Sequence record: NC_000866.4
Origin: Escherichia phage T4
Strand: one strand, 5' to 3'
Length of the DNA: 64,000 nt
The position numbers and the translations under genes are program-made. The stretch's first letter is position 1; the number at the start of each line of letters is the position of its first letter. Positions 8,945 through 48,563 of the stretch are shown here, in pieces. Below the pieces are notes generated by a model. That model did no database searches. It saw nothing but the letters and a program-made list of their open reading frames with translations, and was not told the origin of the DNA.

Positions 8945-10510
8945 ATGACTATCAAAACTAAAGCTGAACTTTTGAACAAATGGAAGCCATTACTGGAAGG
9001 TGAAGGTTTACCGGAAATTGCTAATAGCAAACAAGCGATTATCGCTAAAATCTTTGAAAACCAGGAAAAAGATTTCCAGACAGCTCCGGAATATAAAGAC
9101 GAAAAAATTGCTCAGGCATTCGGTTCTTTCTTAACAGAAGCTGAAATCGGTGGTGACCACGGTTACAATGCTACCAACATCGCTGCAGGTCAGACTTCTG
9201 GCGCAGTAACTCAGATTGGCCCAGCTGTTATGGGTATGGTACGTCGTGCTATTCCTAACCTGATTGCTTTCGATATTTGTGGTGTTCAGCCGATGAACAG
9301 CCCGACTGGCCAGGTATTCGCACTGCGCGCAGTATATGGTAAAGACCCAGTGGCTGCCGGTGCTAAAGAAGCATTCCACCCAATGTATGGTCCAGATGCA
9401 ATGTTCTCTGGTCAGGGTGCTGCTAAGAAATTCCCAGCTCTGGCTGCTAGCACACAAACCACAGTAGGTGATATCTATACTCACTTCTTCCAGGAAACTG
9501 GTACTGTATATCTGCAAGCTTCTGTTCAAGTAACAATCGATGCTGGTGCGACTGATGCTGCTAAATTAGATGCTGAAATTAAGAAACAAATGGAAGCTGG
9601 TGCACTGGTAGAAATCGCTGAAGGTATGGCTACTTCTATCGCTGAACTCCAGGAAGGTTTCAATGGTTCTACCGATAACCCATGGAATGAAATGGGCTTC
9701 CGTATCGATAAGCAAGTTATCGAAGCTAAATCTCGTCAGCTGAAAGCTGCTTACTCTATTGAATTAGCACAAGACCTCCGCGCTGTTCACGGTATGGATG
9801 CTGATGCTGAACTGTCTGGTATTCTGGCTACAGAAATTATGCTGGAAATCAACCGTGAAGTTGTTGATTGGATTAACTACTCAGCTCAGGTTGGTAAATC
9901 TGGTATGACCCTGACTCCGGGTTCTAAAGCTGGTGTATTTGACTTCCAGGACCCAATTGATATTCGTGGTGCTCGCTGGGCGGGTGAATCCTTTAAAGCT
10001 CTGTTGTTCCAGATTGACAAAGAAGCAGTTGAAATTGCTCGTCAGACCGGTCGTGGTGAAGGTAACTTCATTATCGCTTCCCGTAACGTAGTTAACGTTT
10101 TGGCTTCAGTTGATACCGGCATTTCTTATGCTGCACAGGGTCTGGCTACCGGCTTTAGCACTGATACTACCAAGTCAGTATTTGCTGGTGTTCTGGGTGG
10201 TAAATACCGCGTATATATCGACCAGTATGCTAAACAGGATTATTTCACTGTAGGTTATAAAGGTCCGAACGAAATGGATGCTGGTATTTACTATGCTCCA
10301 TATGTAGCTCTGACTCCGCTGCGTGGTTCCGATCCGAAGAACTTCCAACCGGTAATGGGATTCAAAACTCGTTACGGTATCGGTATCAACCCATTTGCAG
10401 AATCCGCTGCTCAGGCTCCGGCTTCTCGCATCCAGAGCGGTATGCCTTCTATTCTGAATAGCCTTGGTAAAAACGCTTACTTTAGACGTGTATATGTTAA
10501 AGGTATCTAA
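8945..10510 (+). CDS. 23: Major capsid protein
   Basis: 521-aa ORF recognised as T4 gp23 (MTIKTKAELLNKWKPLLEGEGLPEIANSKQ...); hairpin terminator downstream. Confidence 0.98.
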   Translation: MTIKTKAELLNKWKPLLEGEGLPEIANSKQAIIAKIFENQEKDFQTAPEYKDEKIAQAFGSFLTEAEIGGDHGYNATNIAAGQTSGAVTQIGPAVMGMVRRAIPNLIAFDICGVQPMNSPTGQVFALRAVYGKDPVAAGAKEAFHPMYGPDAMFSGQGAAKKFPALAASTQTTVGDIYTHFFQETGTVYLQASVQVTIDAGATDAAKLDAEIKKQMEAGALVEIAEGMATSIAELQEGFNGSTDNPWNEMGFRIDKQVIEAKSRQLKAAYSIELAQDLRAVHGMDADAELSGILATEIMLEINREVVDWINYSAQVGKSGMTLTPGSKAGVFDFQDPIDIRGARWAGESFKALLFQIDKEAVEIARQTGRGEGNFIIASRNVVNVLASVDTGISYAAQGLATGFSTDTTKSVFAGVLGGKYRVYIDQYAKQDYFTVGYKGPNEMDAGIYYAPYVALTPLRGSDPKNFQPVMGFKTRYGIGINPFAESAAQAPASRIQSGMPSILNSLGKNAYFRRVYVKGI

Positions 10511-10536
10511 TCTCTAACGATAGAAACACAATTTTA

Positions 10537-10560
10537 GGGAACCTTCGGGTTCCCTTTTTT
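10537..10560 (+). terminator. Rho-independent terminator after gene 23
   Basis: GGGAACC-UUCG-GGUUCCC hairpin followed by a T6 tract. Confidence 0.8.
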
Positions 10561-11232
10561 CTATTTTATACGATAGCAATCAGGCATATCATCCGCATTT
10601 ATCCAATTGCGAATAGTTTTAGGACTAACTTTAAAATGCTCCGCTGCGTAATCAGGATTATCAAATTTAACGCCCTTTATACATATTGGAATAAATTTTT
10701 TAATACCACCAAGTTTTTCAGAAATAGCTTTACGATGTGAAATCGATATAGGTTTGTTTTTTCGTGGATGAACATGTGTTTTATAATATTCATTGCGCCC
10801 TTTAACTCGCTTCGCAATAGTTTCATCAGATTGCTTAACGCCTGTTTTTGCCTTTGATATTTTTCGTTTAGCTTCCACAGTCATTCCTTCTTTTGTTCGT
10901 ATTGATAACATATTACGATATGAAGGATCTTGCAAATGAACTATAACTGGATTTCCTCTGCCACCAATAGCAGCATTATAGGTATCAGTTCTCATAACGA
11001 ATTCCTCATTAACTAGTAAAGCTTCCATTTTATACATCTCCTCAGATGAGGAGAAAGAATAAAGAATTTCTTTTTTAAAGTTATGAATACCATATTTTTT
11101 GATGGATTTTTTGATGTTTACGCCAGAACCCATATAACCATCGTTTTCGTCAAGAGTAGCATGAGCTCCGATGTAAATTTTTCCATTGATGATATTAGTA
11201 ATTTGATATATTAAATATTTCATTTTAAACAT
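10561..11232 (-). CDS. segD: GIY-YIG homing endonuclease-like protein
   Basis: GIY-YIG motif (LIYQITNIINGKIYIG); ORF track starts at GTG 11235, first ATG at 11232 gives 223 aa; lies between genes 23 and 24 as T4 segD. Confidence 0.85.
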   Translation of the reverse strand: MFKMKYLIYQITNIINGKIYIGAHATLDENDGYMGSGVNIKKSIKKYGIHNFKKEILYSFSSSEEMYKMEALLVNEEFVMRTDTYNAAIGGRGNPVIVHLQDPSYRNMLSIRTKEGMTVEAKRKISKAKTGVKQSDETIAKRVKGRNEYYKTHVHPRKNKPISISHRKAISEKLGGIKKFIPICIKGVKFDNPDYAAEHFKVSPKTIRNWINADDMPDCYRIK

Positions 11233-11287
11233 CACTCCGTTTGTATATGATTATAATATCATATTACTTTGGTCTTGTAAATAACTT

Positions 11288-14186: not shown

Positions 14187-15317
14187 TTATGGATAGGTAT
14201 AGATGATACCAGTTTCTAAAGCAGTTTTATGAATGATGTATCCATTACGCGATTCTTGGACATCAACTTCTGGATAGTCTTTCATCATCTTCTGGAGAGT
14301 GTAACGATGCAGGTAATATTTACTATCTGGGTCGTCAGTTTTCCAATCTTTACCTTCTTCGGTCATTTTTTGGATTTCATCCATAACCCACCAACCGCAC
14401 CAGATGTAAGCTGAGCTACGGTGTGGAAGAGGATGAACATAAGGTAATTCACCTTCTGGTTCTGGAGCAACTTTAGCCGTGACTGTTACATTACCAGTTT
14501 TGGTAACGGTTACAGGGTTATAATCTGCAGCAGTAACAGTTGCAGTAACTTCAATAGTTTGACTTCCAACAGATGAGGTATCGACAGTATATACGTTAGT
14601 TGACCCTTCTACAGGAGAAGAATCTTTCTTCCATGAGTAAGTAATTTGTGCTTCTTCTGGAGCACCCGTAACATTAGCCGTAAATGTAGCCGAAGCATCT
14701 TGCTGAACATTAATAGAAGGAGGAGTCAATGTAACCTGTGGATTCATTGTCTTCTTATTAACCGTTAATGATACTTCATTAGAAGTAACGCTTAGTGCAT
14801 CATAATCTGTCGCGGTTACTTGGGCTACGCATTTAATTCTTTTTACTCCACTTGTAGTTGGAGTATAGCTAAATGTAGAGTTAGTTTCTCCACCAACTTG
14901 TGAATCATCTACATACCACTGATACGTAGCAGATGCTCCATCAGGTTGAGAAGCTAAGGCAGCAGTAAATTGAACTGGGGTTCCAATCACTCCAGCCGCA
15001 GGACTAGCAGGAGTTACGGCTAAGGTAGTCGTCTGTGTCTTATTTTTAACTGTGATAGTTGTTGTCGCTTCAGCCGTTTCCGGGCCTCCTTCAGAAAGTG
15101 TATTTGTTGCAACTACTTTAATAGTCTTTTGACCGGCAGGTCCTTTTAGTACATAACTAAAAGTTGCTTCAGCTCCATCTTGTGGAACATTATCTACGCT
15201 CCAAGCATATGTAATAGTTCCGCCTCCAGTTTGACCACTGGGTGTAGCAGTAAACTGCTTAGTTTCATCAATAACCCCTGTAGGTGTTTTAGGAGTTATA
15301 TCAACTGTAAAAGTCAT
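14187..15317 (-). CDS. hoc: Head outer capsid protein with three tandem Ig-like repeats
   Basis: 376-aa ORF; repeated blocks TITYAWSVD / ATYQWYVDD / QITYSWKKD; T4 Hoc length. Confidence 0.94.
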   Translation of the reverse strand: MTFTVDITPKTPTGVIDETKQFTATPSGQTGGGTITYAWSVDNVPQDGAEATFSYVLKGPAGQKTIKVVATNTLSEGGPETAEATTTITVKNKTQTTTLAVTPASPAAGVIGTPVQFTAALASQPDGASATYQWYVDDSQVGGETNSTFSYTPTTSGVKRIKCVAQVTATDYDALSVTSNEVSLTVNKKTMNPQVTLTPPSINVQQDASATFTANVTGAPEEAQITYSWKKDSSPVEGSTNVYTVDTSSVGSQTIEVTATVTAADYNPVTVTKTGNVTVTAKVAPEPEGELPYVHPLPHRSSAYIWCGWWVMDEIQKMTEEGKDWKTDDPDSKYYLHRYTLQKMMKDYPEVDVQESRNGYIIHKTALETGIIYTYP

Positions 15318-15326
15318 AAGTTATCC

Positions 15327-16007
15327 TTATTTTAATGTTACGAAAGAAGAGTTGCGTGTTTCACGAATTAAAACTGATCCATCGCGATTAATGTAATAAA
15401 TTAAGCTAAATAAAGTTTGGTGTGCTGACGCATGTTCAAAACTAGTTGGGTGAGATTTCCAATCAGGAGTTTCAGCAATCCATTGATAAATCCACCAAGG
15501 AACAGTACAGAATCCTAGATTTTTTCCAATCAGTTGAAGATTCGGACTAAAGTTTTCCGGAAGAGTAAATACAGACGGCTTTTCAGATTCAATAATCTCA
15601 GCTACAGCCTGTTCGAATTTTTCTTCAACAAAAGGAGTATCTTCAATCAAAACATCGGTATTTTCAGGAATTTTATCCGTTTCTACTACTTCAATTTTAA
15701 TGTCAGATTTAATCGGAGAATCAATCAGAAGTGCTGCTTCTGGATTGACTTCTTCATCGTCATATTTTAATCCCTCTGCGGCATCAGCAGCATCAATTAA
15801 GTCTTTAATAGATAACCCATCAGTCTCTGGCATAGGTTCACTAGCGAGCTTCTGGAGGGCTTCTTCAATATCAACAACGATATTATCAAAAGATTTATTC
15901 TTTTTGACCTTTATACCAAACTGTTCAGCATATTCAGCTAATTTAGCTTTAGCTTCTTTGTTATCATCAAGAGCCTTCAGCTCTGCAATATAATCTTTAT
16001 CTATCAT
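15327..16007 (-). CDS. inh: Inhibitor of prohead protease
   Basis: 226-aa acidic ORF adjacent to hoc; T4 inh position and length. Confidence 0.85.
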   Translation of the reverse strand: MIDKDYIAELKALDDNKEAKAKLAEYAEQFGIKVKKNKSFDNIVVDIEEALQKLASEPMPETDGLSIKDLIDAADAAEGLKYDDEEVNPEAALLIDSPIKSDIKIEVVETDKIPENTDVLIEDTPFVEEKFEQAVAEIIESEKPSVFTLPENFSPNLQLIGKNLGFCTVPWWIYQWIAETPDWKSHPTSFEHASAHQTLFSLIYYINRDGSVLIRETRNSSFVTLK

Positions 16008-16020
16008 AATATTTCCTCAG

Positions 16021-16028
16021 TATAAATA
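16021..16028 (+). promoter_or_regulatory. Late-promoter motif TATAAATA upstream of segE
   Basis: Exact TATAAATA 29 nt upstream of the segE ATG, in the inh-segE intergenic region. Confidence 0.5.
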
Positions 16029-16056
16029 TAGATATATTTATTACTCGGAAAATAGT

Positions 16057-16674
16057 ATGTACCACTTTGTATATGAAACAACAAATCTAATAAATGGTAA
16101 AAAGTATATAGGAAAGCACTCTACTGATGACTTGAATGATGGTTACCTTGGTTCCGGTAAGGCAATTCAGCAGGCTATAAAGAAATATGGTGAAAACAAT
16201 TTCTCTAGAACAATACTAAAAGAGTTTAAAACTTCCGAAGAAGCGTACATGTATGAAGAAGAAATTATAACTCCTGAACTAATAAAAAGCAAAAATTATT
16301 ATAATATGAAACCTGGTGGAATTGGTGGAATTGTTATGACTACAGATGTTATAGCAAAGATGAAAGAATCTTCCGCTAAAAGATTTGAAAACTCACCGGG
16401 CACGGTATTAGGTAAAACTTGTTATACTAATGGAACTAAAAATATTTTTATTAAACCTGGAGAACTTGTTCCAGAAGGATTTGTAAAAGGGATGGTTCAT
16501 CCTAATAGAAAGTCCAGAAAAGGATGTAAAGTCAAACCGACTACCACAGGAACTTTTTGGGTCAATAATGGCGCAATAAATAAATTAATACAACCAGACG
16601 GTATTATTCCCGACGGATTTATTAAAGGTCGTCTCATGAAAAGAGATTCTAAAGGCAAATTTAGTAAGGCATAA
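16057..16674 (+). CDS. segE: GIY-YIG homing endonuclease
   Basis: GIY-YIG motif (FVYETTNLINGKKYIG); 205 aa; between inh and uvsW as T4 segE. Confidence 0.88.
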   Translation: MYHFVYETTNLINGKKYIGKHSTDDLNDGYLGSGKAIQQAIKKYGENNFSRTILKEFKTSEEAYMYEEEIITPELIKSKNYYNMKPGGIGGIVMTTDVIAKMKESSAKRFENSPGTVLGKTCYTNGTKNIFIKPGELVPEGFVKGMVHPNRKSRKGCKVKPTTTGTFWVNNGAINKLIQPDGIIPDGFIKGRLMKRDSKGKFSKA

Positions 16675-16676
16675 TT

Positions 16677-18440
16677 ATGGATATTAAAGTACATTTTCAC
16701 GACTTCAGTCATGTACGCATCGATTGTGAAGAGAGCACGTTCCACGAATTAAGAGATTTCTTTTCGTTTGAGGCCGATGGATATAGATTTAATCCTCGCT
16801 TCAGATATGGCAACTGGGATGGACGAATCCGTCTTTTAGATTATAATCGTCTTCTTCCATTCGGCTTAGTCGGGCAAATTAAAAAATTCTGTGATAATTT
16901 TGGCTATAAAGCCTGGATTGACCCACAAATTAACGAAAAAGAAGAATTATCAAGAAAAGATTTTGATGAATGGCTTTCTAAATTAGAAATCTATTCAGGA
17001 AATAAAAGAATTGAACCGCACTGGTATCAAAAAGATGCAGTGTTCGAAGGATTAGTTAATCGTCGTAGAATTCTTAATCTTCCAACATCTGCAGGTAAAT
17101 CTTTAATTCAAGCTTTGCTTGCGCGATATTATTTGGAAAATTATGAAGGTAAAATTCTTATCATTGTTCCAACAACTGCTCTGACAACTCAGATGGCTGA
17201 TGACTTCGTCGACTATCGTTTATTCAGCCATGCAATGATAAAGAAAATTGGTGGCGGAGCATCAAAAGATGATAAATATAAAAATGATGCACCAGTCGTT
17301 GTTGGTACATGGCAAACTGTAGTAAAACAACCGAAAGAATGGTTCTCACAGTTTGGAATGATGATGAATGATGAATGCCATCTTGCTACAGGAAAAAGTA
17401 TTTCATCTATCATATCAGGTTTAAATAACTGCATGTTCAAATTCGGTTTGTCTGGTTCATTACGTGATGGCAAAGCCAATATCATGCAGTATGTTGGAAT
17501 GTTTGGTGAAATATTTAAACCAGTAACGACTTCTAAATTAATGGAAGATGGACAAGTAACTGAGCTAAAAATTAATAGTATTTTTCTTCGCTATCCCGAT
17601 GAGTTCACTACTAAATTAAAGGGAAAAACTTACCAAGAAGAAATAAAAATTATTACTGGGCTTAGTAAAAGAAATAAATGGATCGCTAAATTAGCTATTA
17701 AGCTTGCGCAAAAAGATGAAAACGCTTTTGTCATGTTTAAACATGTATCGCATGGTAAAGCTATTTTCGATTTAATTAAAAATGAATACGATAAAGTTTA
17801 TTACGTATCAGGGGAAGTTGATACCGAAACCCGCAATATAATGAAAACCTTAGCTGAAAATGGTAAAGGAATAATTATAGTAGCTAGTTATGGTGTATTT
17901 TCTACTGGTATTTCAGTTAAAAATCTGCATCACGTTGTTTTAGCGCACGGTGTTAAATCAAAAATCATTGTATTACAAACAATCGGTCGTGTATTACGTA
18001 AGCATGGTTCTAAGACAATAGCAACAGTCTGGGACCTCATAGATAGCGCAGGCGTCAAGCCAAAATCTGCTAATACGAAAAAGAAATATGTTCATTTGAA
18101 CTATCTTTTAAAACACGGCATTGATCGTATTCAGCGCTACGCAGATGAAAAATTTAATTACGTAATGAAAACAGTTAATTTAATAAGCTTCGGCCCTTTG
18201 GAGAAAAAGATGTTACTAGAATTTAAACAATTTCTTTATGAAGCTTCTATTGATGAATTTATGGGTAAAATTGCCTCTTGTCAAACATTAGAAGGTTTAG
18301 AAGAACTTGAAGCTTATTATAAGAAAAGAGTCAAAGAAACTGAATTAAAAGATACTGATGACATCTCTGTGAGAGATGCTTTGGCAGGAAAAAGAGCTGA
18401 ATTAGAAGATTCAGACGATGAAGTAGAAGAAAGCTTTTAA
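16677..18440 (+). CDS. uvsW: SF2 DNA/RNA helicase
   Basis: 587-aa ORF with Walker A (PTSAGKS) and DECH box; matches full-length T4 UvsW. Confidence 0.94.
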   Translation: MDIKVHFHDFSHVRIDCEESTFHELRDFFSFEADGYRFNPRFRYGNWDGRIRLLDYNRLLPFGLVGQIKKFCDNFGYKAWIDPQINEKEELSRKDFDEWLSKLEIYSGNKRIEPHWYQKDAVFEGLVNRRRILNLPTSAGKSLIQALLARYYLENYEGKILIIVPTTALTTQMADDFVDYRLFSHAMIKKIGGGASKDDKYKNDAPVVVGTWQTVVKQPKEWFSQFGMMMNDECHLATGKSISSIISGLNNCMFKFGLSGSLRDGKANIMQYVGMFGEIFKPVTTSKLMEDGQVTELKINSIFLRYPDEFTTKLKGKTYQEEIKIITGLSKRNKWIAKLAIKLAQKDENAFVMFKHVSHGKAIFDLIKNEYDKVYYVSGEVDTETRNIMKTLAENGKGIIIVASYGVFSTGISVKNLHHVVLAHGVKSKIIVLQTIGRVLRKHGSKTIATVWDLIDSAGVKPKSANTKKKYVHLNYLLKHGIDRIQRYADEKFNYVMKTVNLISFGPLEKKMLLEFKQFLYEASIDEFMGKIASCQTLEGLEELEAYYKKRVKETELKDTDDISVRDALAGKRAELEDSDDEVEESF

Positions 18441-18472
18441 ATTAAAAAAGGCCCAACCAAAAAGGAAGGGCC
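18440..18472 (-). terminator. Terminator-like hairpin after the small ORF downstream of uvsY
   Basis: Minus strand GGCCC...GGGCC stem with 13-nt loop followed by UUUUUUAAUUU. Confidence 0.5.
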
Positions 18473-20449: not shown

Positions 20450-20461
20450 TATTTATAAATA
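20450..20461. promoter_or_regulatory. Overlapping divergent late promoters for gene 26 (minus) and gene 51 (plus)
   Basis: TATTTATAAATA reads TATAAATA on both strands (plus 20454-20461, minus 20450-20457), about 20 nt from each ATG. Confidence 0.6.
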
Positions 20462-47546: not shown

Positions 47547-48563
47547 CATTATGTTCAGATAAGGTCGTTAATCTTACCCCGGAATTATATCCAGCTGCAT
47601 GTCACCATGCAGAGCAGACTATATCTCCAACTTGTTAAAGCAAGTTGTCTATCGTTTCGAGTCACTTGACCCTACTCCCCAAAGGGATAGTCGTTAGGCA
47701 TTTATGTAGAACCAATTCCATTTATCAGATTTTACACGATAAGTAACTAATCCAGACGAAATTTTAAAATGTCTAGCTGCATCTGCTGCACAATCAAAAA
47801 TAACCCCATCACATGAAATCTTTTTAATATTACTAGGCTTTTTACCTTTCATCTTTTCTGATATTTTAGATTTAGTTATGTCTGAATGCTTATGATTAAA
47901 GAATGAATTATTTTCACCTGAACGATTTCTGCATTTACTACAAGTATAAGCAGAAGTTTGTATGCGAACACCGCACTTACAAAACTTATGGGTTTCTGGA
48001 TTCCAACGCCCGTTTTTACTTCCGGGTTTACTGTAAAGAGCTTTCCGACCATCAGGTCCAAGTTTAAGCATCTTAGCTTTAACAGTTTCAGAACGTTTCT
48101 TAATAATTTCTTCTTTTAATGGATGCGTAGAACATGTATCACCAAACGTTGCATCAGCAATATTGTATCCATTAATTTTAGAATTAAGCTCTTTAATCCA
48201 AAAATTTTCTCGTTCAATAATCAAATCTTTCTCATATGGAATTTCTTCCAAAATAGAACATTCAAACACATTACCATGTTTGTTAAAAGACCTCTGAAGT
48301 TTTATAGAAGAATGGCATCCTTTTTCTAAATCTTTAAAATGCCTCTTCCATCTCTTTTCAAAATCTTTAGCACTTCCTACATATACTTTATTGTTTAAAG
48401 TATTTTTAATCTGATAAATTCCGCTTTTCATAAATACCTCTTTAAATATAGAAGTATTTATTAAAGGGCAAGTCCTACAATTTAGCACGGGATTGTCTAC
48501 TAGAGAGGTTCCCCGTTTAGATAGATTACAAGTATAAGTCACCTTATACTCAGGCCTCAATTA
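47547..48563 (-). mobile_element. Group I self-splicing intron in td (about 1.0 kb) carrying I-TevI
   Basis: Exon 1 ends ...TTGGGT followed by intron TAATTGAGGCC; intron ends ...ATAATG before exon 2; conserved core shared with the nrdB intron. Confidence 0.92.
47694..48431 (-). CDS. I-TevI: Intron-encoded GIY-YIG homing endonuclease
   Basis: 245 aa from ATG at 48431 (MKSGIYQIKNTLNNKVYVGSAKD...), recognised as I-TevI; the ORF track extends 43 codons upstream by in-frame read-through. Confidence 0.95.
   Translation of the reverse strand: MKSGIYQIKNTLNNKVYVGSAKDFEKRWKRHFKDLEKGCHSSIKLQRSFNKHGNVFECSILEEIPYEKDLIIERENFWIKELNSKINGYNIADATFGDTCSTHPLKEEIIKKRSETVKAKMLKLGPDGRKALYSKPGSKNGRWNPETHKFCKCGVRIQTSAYTCSKCRNRSGENNSFFNHKHSDITKSKISEKMKGKKPSNIKKISCDGVIFDCAADAARHFKISSGLVTYRVKSDKWNWFYINA

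What the first reader, a model, noticed from the sequence alone, without database searches (positions are those of the whole stretch)
16057..16674. GIY-YIG endonuclease gene segE preceded by a late-promoter motif
segE has an intact GIY-YIG motif and an exact TATAAATA 29 nt upstream, suggesting late expression timed with replication and recombination. It sits between inh and uvsW on the opposite strand to inh.
Basis: partly seen in the sequence, partly recalled or inferred. Interest (0 to 1): 0.3.

Follow-up and report, generated by a model that had tools for sequence, protein, structure and literature searches.

The report
Phage T4 segE homing endonuclease gene
This is the well-studied selfish endonuclease gene segE of phage T4, which sits just behind the late promoter of the neighbouring helicase gene uvsW and is already known to be made late in infection, so the finding is correct but ordinary.

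Summary
Window 16057-16674 (+) is a 205-aa ORF identical to phage T4 SegE. The window is T4 reference positions 96001-160000. An exact TATAAATA lies at 16021-16028, and its last base is 29 nt before the ATG. Late expression is already published: segE is classed late for both RNA and protein, and SegE is first detected 12 min after infection, together with UvsW and Inh. SegE-driven homing in T4 x RB30 crosses is also published.

One refinement comes from comparison with relatives. T-even phages that lack segE carry the same intergenic sequence, with the same TATAAATA 29-30 nt before the uvsW start codon. The promoter is therefore the resident uvsW late promoter. segE is inserted between that promoter and uvsW and borrows it, so it probably heads a segE-uvsW late transcript.

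The first ~130 nt of uvsW exist as two discrete alleles about 23% apart, mostly at silent sites. The T4-type allele occurs in 156 phage records and segE in 157. This fits the published SegE target at the 5' end of uvsW, with co-conversion of flanking DNA.

Novelty: already known. Interest: low.

The parts
16021..16028 (+). T4 late-promoter element TATAAATA, shared by segE and uvsW. The expected transcription start is about 6-7 nt downstream (~16034-16036, inferred).
   Evidence: Exact match. It is annotated 'predicted late promoter' at the same position in fPS-90 (no segE) and fPS-2 (with segE). It is conserved in RB27, BCPShso_001, CGG4-1 and LF82-41. segE and uvsW are late in RNA and protein.
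16035..16042 (-). AATAAATA, a one-mismatch late-promoter-like element facing inh. It lies back to back with the + strand element, 28 nt before the inh ATG.
   Evidence: Motif scan. The review places a late promoter upstream of inh in this spacer. Function was not tested here.
16045..16056 (+). Left junction of the segE insertion and the segE 5' leader. Sequence is identical to segE-less phages up to 16044 and diverges from 16045.
   Evidence: Alignment of T4 with RB27, fPS-90 and BCPShso_001 and with LF82-41. The leader shows no significant RNA structure (z = -0.95).
16057..16674 (+). segE coding sequence, 205 aa including the stop. The N-terminal ~95 aa form the GIY-YIG catalytic domain. The C-terminal half carries an internal repeat (aa 116-145 = 16402-16491 and aa 162-191 = 16540-16629), presumably for DNA binding.
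   Evidence: (PHROG 314 homing endonuclease, E 2.6e-43). The region is 100% identical to T4 records.
16575..16582 (+). AATAAATA inside segE, 95 nt before the uvsW ATG. It is a candidate for the 'embedded' uvsW promoter mentioned in the review.
   Evidence: Motif scan. The review states that segE contains a promoter for the downstream gene. The link between the two is unverified.
16677..16806 (+). 5' end of uvsW in the recoded allele that travels with segE. It is the likely immunity and co-conversion tract, and the equivalent stretch in segE-less phages holds the SegE target.
   Evidence: About 30 mostly silent differences in the first ~135 nt between phages with and without segE, dropping to background beyond that. 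The distribution is bimodal: 156 records at >=95% identity, none at 90-95% and 580 at 60-90%, against 157 records with segE.
16677..18440 (+). uvsW helicase gene, the downstream cistron of the same late unit. In this reference reading it is fused with uvsW.1 into 587 aa.
   Evidence: Resequenced T4 has a stop near 18183 and a separate uvsW.1.
18450..18472 (.). GC-rich hairpin between the converging uvsW(.1) and uvsY.-2 genes, the probable end of the segE-uvsW unit.
   Evidence: Fold of -12.6 kcal/mol, z = -2.9. It is annotated as a terminator in Aplg8, and a conserved bidirectional terminator is described.

Best explanation
This is segE of phage T4, a free-standing GIY-YIG homing endonuclease gene. 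It is inserted between the late promoter of uvsW and the uvsW start codon. Late in infection the gp55/gp33/gp45-dependent RNA polymerase starts a few bases after TATAAATA (16021-16028). It transcribes segE and then uvsW, whose ATG lies 2 nt after the segE stop. SegE therefore appears with UvsW at about 12 min, when many replicating, recombining genomes are present. In a cell co-infected with a segE-less relative, SegE cuts that phage's DNA at the start of uvsW. The break is repaired by T4 recombination using the segE-bearing genome as template. This copies in segE together with about 130 nt of silently recoded uvsW that makes the carrier a poorer substrate. Shown here: gene identity, promoter position and conservation, the insertion junctions, and the two-allele structure of uvsW. 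Taken from publications: late RNA and protein, cleavage, and homing. Inferred: the exact transcription start, co-transcription with uvsW, and that the recoding gives immunity.
For: Identity: the region is 99.8-100% identical to T4 records, which annotate segE there. The window coordinates equal the T4 reference coordinates minus 96000. Family. Promoter: exact motif at the modal late-gene spacing. Phages without segE have the same spacer and motif 29-30 nt before uvsW. The same layout holds for diverged segE homologues in Gelderlandvirus and Mosigvirus phages. Timing: segE, uvsW and inh are all classed late for RNA and protein, and SegE intensity is zero through 8 min and positive at 12, 20 and 30 min. 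UvsW is expressed from a late promoter, citing Derr and Kreuzer 1990. Homing: cleavage near the start of uvsW in RB30 and RB52 and almost 100% inheritance in T4 x RB30 crosses. Comparative signature of homing: identity between T4 and segE-less phages falls to 75-91% only in the first ~300 nt of uvsW and is ~96-99% on either side, while phages with segE are 97-100% there. The allele count matches the segE count, 156 against 157.
Against: No 5'-end mapping of the transcript could be read here, so initiation at this motif is inferred from consensus, conservation and timing. The review says a promoter for the downstream gene is embedded inside segE, so uvsW may not depend only on read-through from 16021. 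The only candidate I found is a one-mismatch AATAAATA at 16575. The match between 156 and 157 records is a match of totals, not a record-by-record check. The hairpin after uvsW has no U-run on the + strand. An I-TevI R27 equivalent is not evident in SegE.
Confidence: 0.9

Rival explanations
1. The late promoter belongs to segE itself: it came in with the mobile cassette as an endonuclease-specific promoter.
For: The review lists segE among endonuclease genes transcribed from promoters in the non-coding region upstream of the ORF and calls such promoters 'endonuclease-specific'.
Against: The spacer from the inh ATG through TATAAATA up to window 16044 is base-for-base identical in RB27, fPS-90 and BCPShso_001, which lack segE. 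There the motif lies 29-30 nt before the uvsW ATG. Divergence starts only at 16045, downstream of the motif and of the expected transcription start.
Confidence: 0.05
2. The TATAAATA is a chance match in an AT-rich spacer, or serves only the divergent inh gene. segE would then be transcribed from elsewhere.
For: Exact copies are expected about 8 times per window by chance. The spacer is 80% A+T, giving roughly a 3% chance of a match.
Against: The motif faces segE and uvsW, not inh. No same-strand gene lies upstream, since hoc and inh are on the other strand. No sigma-70-like or MotA-like promoter was found in the spacer. The motif is conserved at the same spacing across three genera. Expression is strictly late.
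Confidence: 0.03
3. segE and uvsW are separate late units. The motif at 16021 drives mainly segE, and uvsW is driven by a promoter inside segE, such as AATAAATA at 16575-16582.
For: [quoted passage not shown] A one-mismatch late-like motif lies 95 nt before uvsW.
Against: No terminator-like site lies between segE and uvsW. The two genes are 2 nt apart and the junction is unstructured. The fPS-2 annotators predicted no second late promoter. In segE-less phages the motif at 16021 is the only candidate for uvsW.
Confidence: 0.2

Closest known systems
Phage T4 SegE (UniProt P18060; Kadyrov et al. 1994, 1997)
   Same: It is this gene: 100% nucleotide identity over 16047-16676 with T4 records, the same neighbours and the same 205-aa product.
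   Different: Nothing differs in the gene itself. The window is the older T4 reference reading, which differs from resequenced T4 only outside segE, at 15517, 18045-18046 and 18182-18186.
T4 SegD (window 10561-11235, - strand)
   Same: A paralogous GIY-YIG domain, 46% identical over the first 95 aa, with the shared H(S/A)T.D.NDGY(L/M)GSG stretch. It is also present or absent among relatives.
   Different: SegD is antisense to its neighbours, has no promoter of its own and has no demonstrated activity. segE is co-oriented with uvsW, has a promoter directly upstream and is active.
T4 SegG / gene 32 and SegF / gene 56 (free-standing homing endonucleases that cause marker exclusion)
   Same: The endonuclease gene sits next to the conserved gene that holds its target, and flanking markers are co-converted in mixed infection.
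   Different: segF and segG are described as promoter-less cassettes inside existing polycistronic units, and segG carries the gene 32 promoters inside it. segE sits directly behind a late promoter that the target gene uses in segE-less phages.
I-TevI (td intron endonuclease, window about 47694-48431, - strand)
   Same: A GIY-YIG catalytic core with aligned Y6, Y17, Glu and Asn. It is also expressed from a late promoter just upstream.
   Different: I-TevI is intron-encoded, has a 9-aa segment containing R27 that SegE lacks in the alignment, and is controlled by an RBS-sequestering hairpin and autorepression. No comparable hairpin is seen before segE.

Membership tests
GIY-YIG nuclease superfamily | GIY and YIG motifs, each with a conserved Tyr, about 10-11 residues apart near the N-terminus | tested here: met
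   FVY at 4-6 and YIG at 17-19. Y6, Y17 and G19 are invariant in the alignment with I-TevI, SegD and two segE homologues.
GIY-YIG nuclease superfamily | Conserved Arg shortly after YIG (I-TevI R27) | tested here: inconclusive
   In the MAFFT alignment, I-TevI residues 20-28 including R27 fall in an insertion that is absent from SegE and SegD. No Arg occurs in SegE 20-50. Only a structure would settle it.
GIY-YIG nuclease superfamily | Conserved catalytic Glu (I-TevI E75) and Asn (I-TevI N90) | tested here: met
   SegE E68 aligns with E75, and N83 with N90, which is invariant.
GIY-YIG nuclease superfamily | Score above the curated Pfam threshold | tested here: met
   PF19835 SegE_GIY-YIG scores 36.5 bits against a cut-off of 25. 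The generic PF01541 scores 21.6 bits against 22.6, just below.
Free-standing homing endonuclease gene (T4 seg family) | Presence/absence polymorphism at a fixed intergenic site between conserved genes | tested here: met
   A query with segE deleted aligns in one piece (1183 vs 1185 nt) in many T-even phages, and in two pieces 618 nt apart in the others. The junctions are mapped.
Free-standing homing endonuclease gene (T4 seg family) | Site-specific cleavage of the allele that lacks the gene | not testable with these tools
   Published for RB30 and RB52 (Kadyrov et al. 1997, as cited). The original paper is not held.
Free-standing homing endonuclease gene (T4 seg family) | Non-reciprocal transfer with co-conversion of flanking sequence | tested here: met
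   Comparative signature: a recoded uvsW 5' tract co-occurs with segE, with 156 against 157 records. A mosaic breakpoint is seen in BCPShso_001. The experiment is published.
T4 late promoter (gp55/gp33/gp45-dependent) | TATAAATA element on the coding strand at the usual distance before the gene | tested here: met
   Exact motif, 29 nt before the ATG. The same 28-29 nt spacing is seen before the 659-, 524-, 269- and 427-aa late ORFs in this window.
T4 late promoter (gp55/gp33/gp45-dependent) | Late-only accumulation of RNA and protein | not testable with these tools
   Published: Class_Tx late, Class_P late, and protein first seen at 12 min.
T4 late promoter (gp55/gp33/gp45-dependent) | Transcript 5' end mapped a few nt after the motif, dependent on gp55 and gp33 | not tested
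   Derr and Kreuzer 1990 and Miller et al. 2003 are not held. No T4 start-site dataset was found in the library.

The most novel reading that the evidence does not exclude
Carrying segE is not neutral for the phage. The insertion replaces the native uvsW leader and ribosome-binding region, puts uvsW second in the operon, and may add an internal late-like promoter at 16575. Phages with and without segE would then differ in the amount or timing of UvsW. UvsW is the helicase that shuts off origin (R-loop) replication, so the two uvsW 5' alleles would be functionally distinct and not merely cleavage-resistant versus sensitive.
Probability: 0.12. Interest if true: 0.35.

Novelty: already known. Interest (0 to 1): 0.1.

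Why it matters
It matters little as a discovery. segE, its activity, its homing and its late expression are all in the literature. The comparison run here sharpens one point that the review leaves ambiguous: the late promoter is the resident uvsW promoter that the endonuclease gene has slipped in behind. It also shows that the mobile unit in nature is segE plus about 130 nt of recoded uvsW. This makes a clean textbook example of how a selfish gene fits into a host transcription unit and protects its own carrier.

Tried and rejected
- The T4 reference record (NC_000866 / AF158101) is not in the phage collection, so its own promoter annotation could not be read.
- Kadyrov 1997 and Miller 2003 are not held.
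- A search for a T4 transcription-start dataset found nothing relevant.
- A sequence search of solved structures gave only spurious weak hits (a tail tube protein, E 0.008) and did not find I-TevI. I-TevI was instead aligned from its gene in the window.
- Pfam finds nothing in the C-terminal 110 aa even at E = 10.
- The sigma-70 promoter scan found no site in the inh-segE spacer and fewer sites than shuffles overall. A MotA-box search found no credible middle promoter.
- No RNA structure sequesters the segE or uvsW start regions, so I-TevI-style hairpin control was rejected.
- I did not run the large protein searches or a structure prediction, because the identity of the gene was not in doubt.

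Full report
**What is there**

Window 16057-16674 (+) is an ATG-initiated ORF of 205 aa. It lies between inh (15327-16007, - strand) and uvsW (16677 onward, + strand). The region is 99.8% identical over 3.2 kb to about a dozen phage T4 records that annotate hoc, inh, segE and uvsW in this order. Positions 16047-16676 are 100% identical to T4. A published table gives segE at T4 reference positions 112057-112674 and uvsW at 112677-114440, so the window is T4 reference 96001-160000.

The protein matches Pfam PF19835 (SegE_GIY-YIG, 36.5 bits, cut-off 25) and PHROG 314 (homing endonuclease, E 2.6e-43). The generic GIY-YIG model falls just below its threshold, at 21.6 against 22.6 bits. I aligned SegE with I-TevI and SegD, both encoded in this window, and with two diverged segE homologues. 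SegE Y6, Y17, G19 and N83 are invariant, and E68 aligns with I-TevI E75. The literal 'GIY' is FVY, and no equivalent of I-TevI R27 is evident. The C-terminal half has no Pfam match. It does contain an internal repeat, aa 116-145 against 162-191, with score 65 against shuffles at 21 +/- 4 (0 of 1000 reached it).

**The motif**

TATAAATA is exact at 16021-16028 (+), and its last base is 29 nt before the ATG. The window holds 19 exact copies against 8.4 +/- 3.0 in shuffles. Thirteen of them lie 15-35 nt before an ORF of at least 50 aa on the same strand. A spacing of 28-29 nt recurs before the large late structural ORFs. From local composition, the chance of one copy in this 49-nt spacer in this orientation is about 0.03.

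**Whose promoter is it**

I built a query with segE removed (15500-16056 joined to 16675-17300). It aligns in a single piece of 1185 nt in many T-even phages, including RB27, teqskov, fPS-90 and G8. It aligns in two pieces 618 nt apart in phages that carry segE.

- In the segE-less phages the spacer between inh and uvsW is 50 nt.
- That spacer is identical to T4 from the inh ATG through TATAAATA up to window 16044.
- It places the motif 29-30 nt before the uvsW ATG.
- The fPS-90 (no segE) and fPS-2 (with segE) records both annotate this motif as a predicted late promoter.
- Diverged segE homologues in a Gelderlandvirus and a Mosigvirus occupy the same site with the motif 29-31 nt upstream.

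The motif is therefore the resident late promoter of uvsW. UvsW is known to be expressed from a late promoter (Derr and Kreuzer 1990, cited). segE is inserted between that promoter and the uvsW start codon. The left junction is at 16045-16050, and the right junction is at the uvsW ATG, 2 nt after the segE stop.

No terminator-like site and no significant RNA structure separates the two genes. A GC-rich hairpin follows uvsW at 18450-18472. The simplest reading is one late segE-uvsW transcript. The review by Edgell, Gibb and Belfort says that segE is transcribed from a promoter in the upstream non-coding region and that a promoter for the downstream gene is embedded in segE. The only candidate I found for the embedded promoter is a one-mismatch AATAAATA at 16575-16582. 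This remains open.

**Timing and function, from the literature**

Time-resolved RNA-seq and proteomics of T4 infection class segE, uvsW and inh as late for both transcript and protein. Only 38 T4 genes met the late RNA criterion. SegE protein intensity is zero at 0, 1, 3, 5 and 8 min and positive at 12, 20 and 30 min, in parallel with UvsW and Inh. SegE is listed as an active endonuclease whose target gene is uvsW. In T4 x RB30 co-infections it drives homing of its own gene at almost 100% efficiency. This depends on an intact segE and on homology, and flanking sequence is co-converted.

**Signature of homing in natural genomes**

I compared sliding identity to T4 over 14 kb.

- The two segE-less phages run mostly at ~96-99% identity away from the variable hoc and segD regions. 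They drop to 75% and 90-92% in the first ~300 nt of uvsW.
- The inh side stays at 97-99.6%.
- Three phages with segE are 97-100% across the same stretch.

At base level the first ~135 nt of uvsW carry about 30 differences, mostly silent. In nine genomes these sort perfectly with the presence of segE. One segE-less phage, BCPShso_001, switches to the T4-like sequence after about nt 100. Across the collection the first 130 nt of uvsW are bimodal: 156 records at >=95% identity to T4, none at 90-95% and 580 at 60-90%. segE at >=95% identity is found in 157 records. The unit that moves is thus segE plus a recoded uvsW start. This fits a target in the uvsW 5' end and the published weaker cutting of T4 DNA. 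That last detail, from the Kadyrov 1997 abstract, is my recollection and was not read here.

**Verdict**

The only addition is that the late promoter is borrowed from uvsW and not brought in by segE. Novelty: already known. Interest: about 0.1.

Noticed in passing
window 18182-18186 (also 15517 and 18045-18046): The window reads TTTAATAAGCTTCGGCCC where resequenced T4 (T4T and MT984581) reads TTTATAAGGGCTTCGGCCC. In the resequenced genomes uvsW stops at a TAA here (502 aa), a GGGCUUCGGCCC hairpin follows, and uvsW.1 is a separate ORF. The 587-aa fused uvsW ORF in the window (16677-18440) is the old reference reading, which the literature reports as corrected by resequencing.
   Followed up: yes
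L011 (Yersinia phage PYPS2T) 8683-9375: A further annotated homing endonuclease gene (230 aa) sits between uvsW and uvsW.1 in this phage. The uvsW/uvsW.1 gap is therefore itself an insertion site for mobile endonuclease genes.
   Followed up: no
window 16035-16042 (- strand) and 16021-16028 (+ strand): The 49-nt inh-segE spacer holds two late-promoter-like elements back to back, 6 bp apart. TATAAATA faces segE and uvsW, and AATAAATA faces inh. Each lies 28-29 nt from its ATG. A similar overlapping divergent pair of exact TATAAATA motifs lies at 20450-20461, where the window's gene order and the RB27 annotation place genes 26 and 51.
   Followed up: partly
window ~10500-11250 (segD, - strand 10561-11235): The segD region between genes 23 and 24 is absent from RB27 and teqskov. 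In EP01 it aligns to T4 at only ~62-70% identity, and that record annotates only a short hypothetical ORF there. This is another endonuclease-gene presence/absence polymorphism in the same window.
   Followed up: partly
window 16402-16491 and 16540-16629 (SegE aa 116-145 and 162-191): The SegE C-terminal half contains a duplicated ~30-aa module (T..G....NG..N..I.P....P.GF.KG) with no Pfam match. It is presumably a tandem DNA-binding unit.
   Followed up: partly
L016 (MG010123.1 'Staphylococcus phage SAJK-IND'): This 32-kb record, flagged UNVERIFIED_ORG, carries hoc-inh-segE-uvsW with segE at 97.6% identity to T4. It is a T4-like fragment, not a staphylococcal phage.
   Followed up: partly
window 14250-15250 (hoc): hoc is the most variable stretch of the 14 kb compared, at 79-92% identity with length differences (376 aa in T4, 472 aa in RB27). 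This variation is independent of segE status.
   Followed up: no
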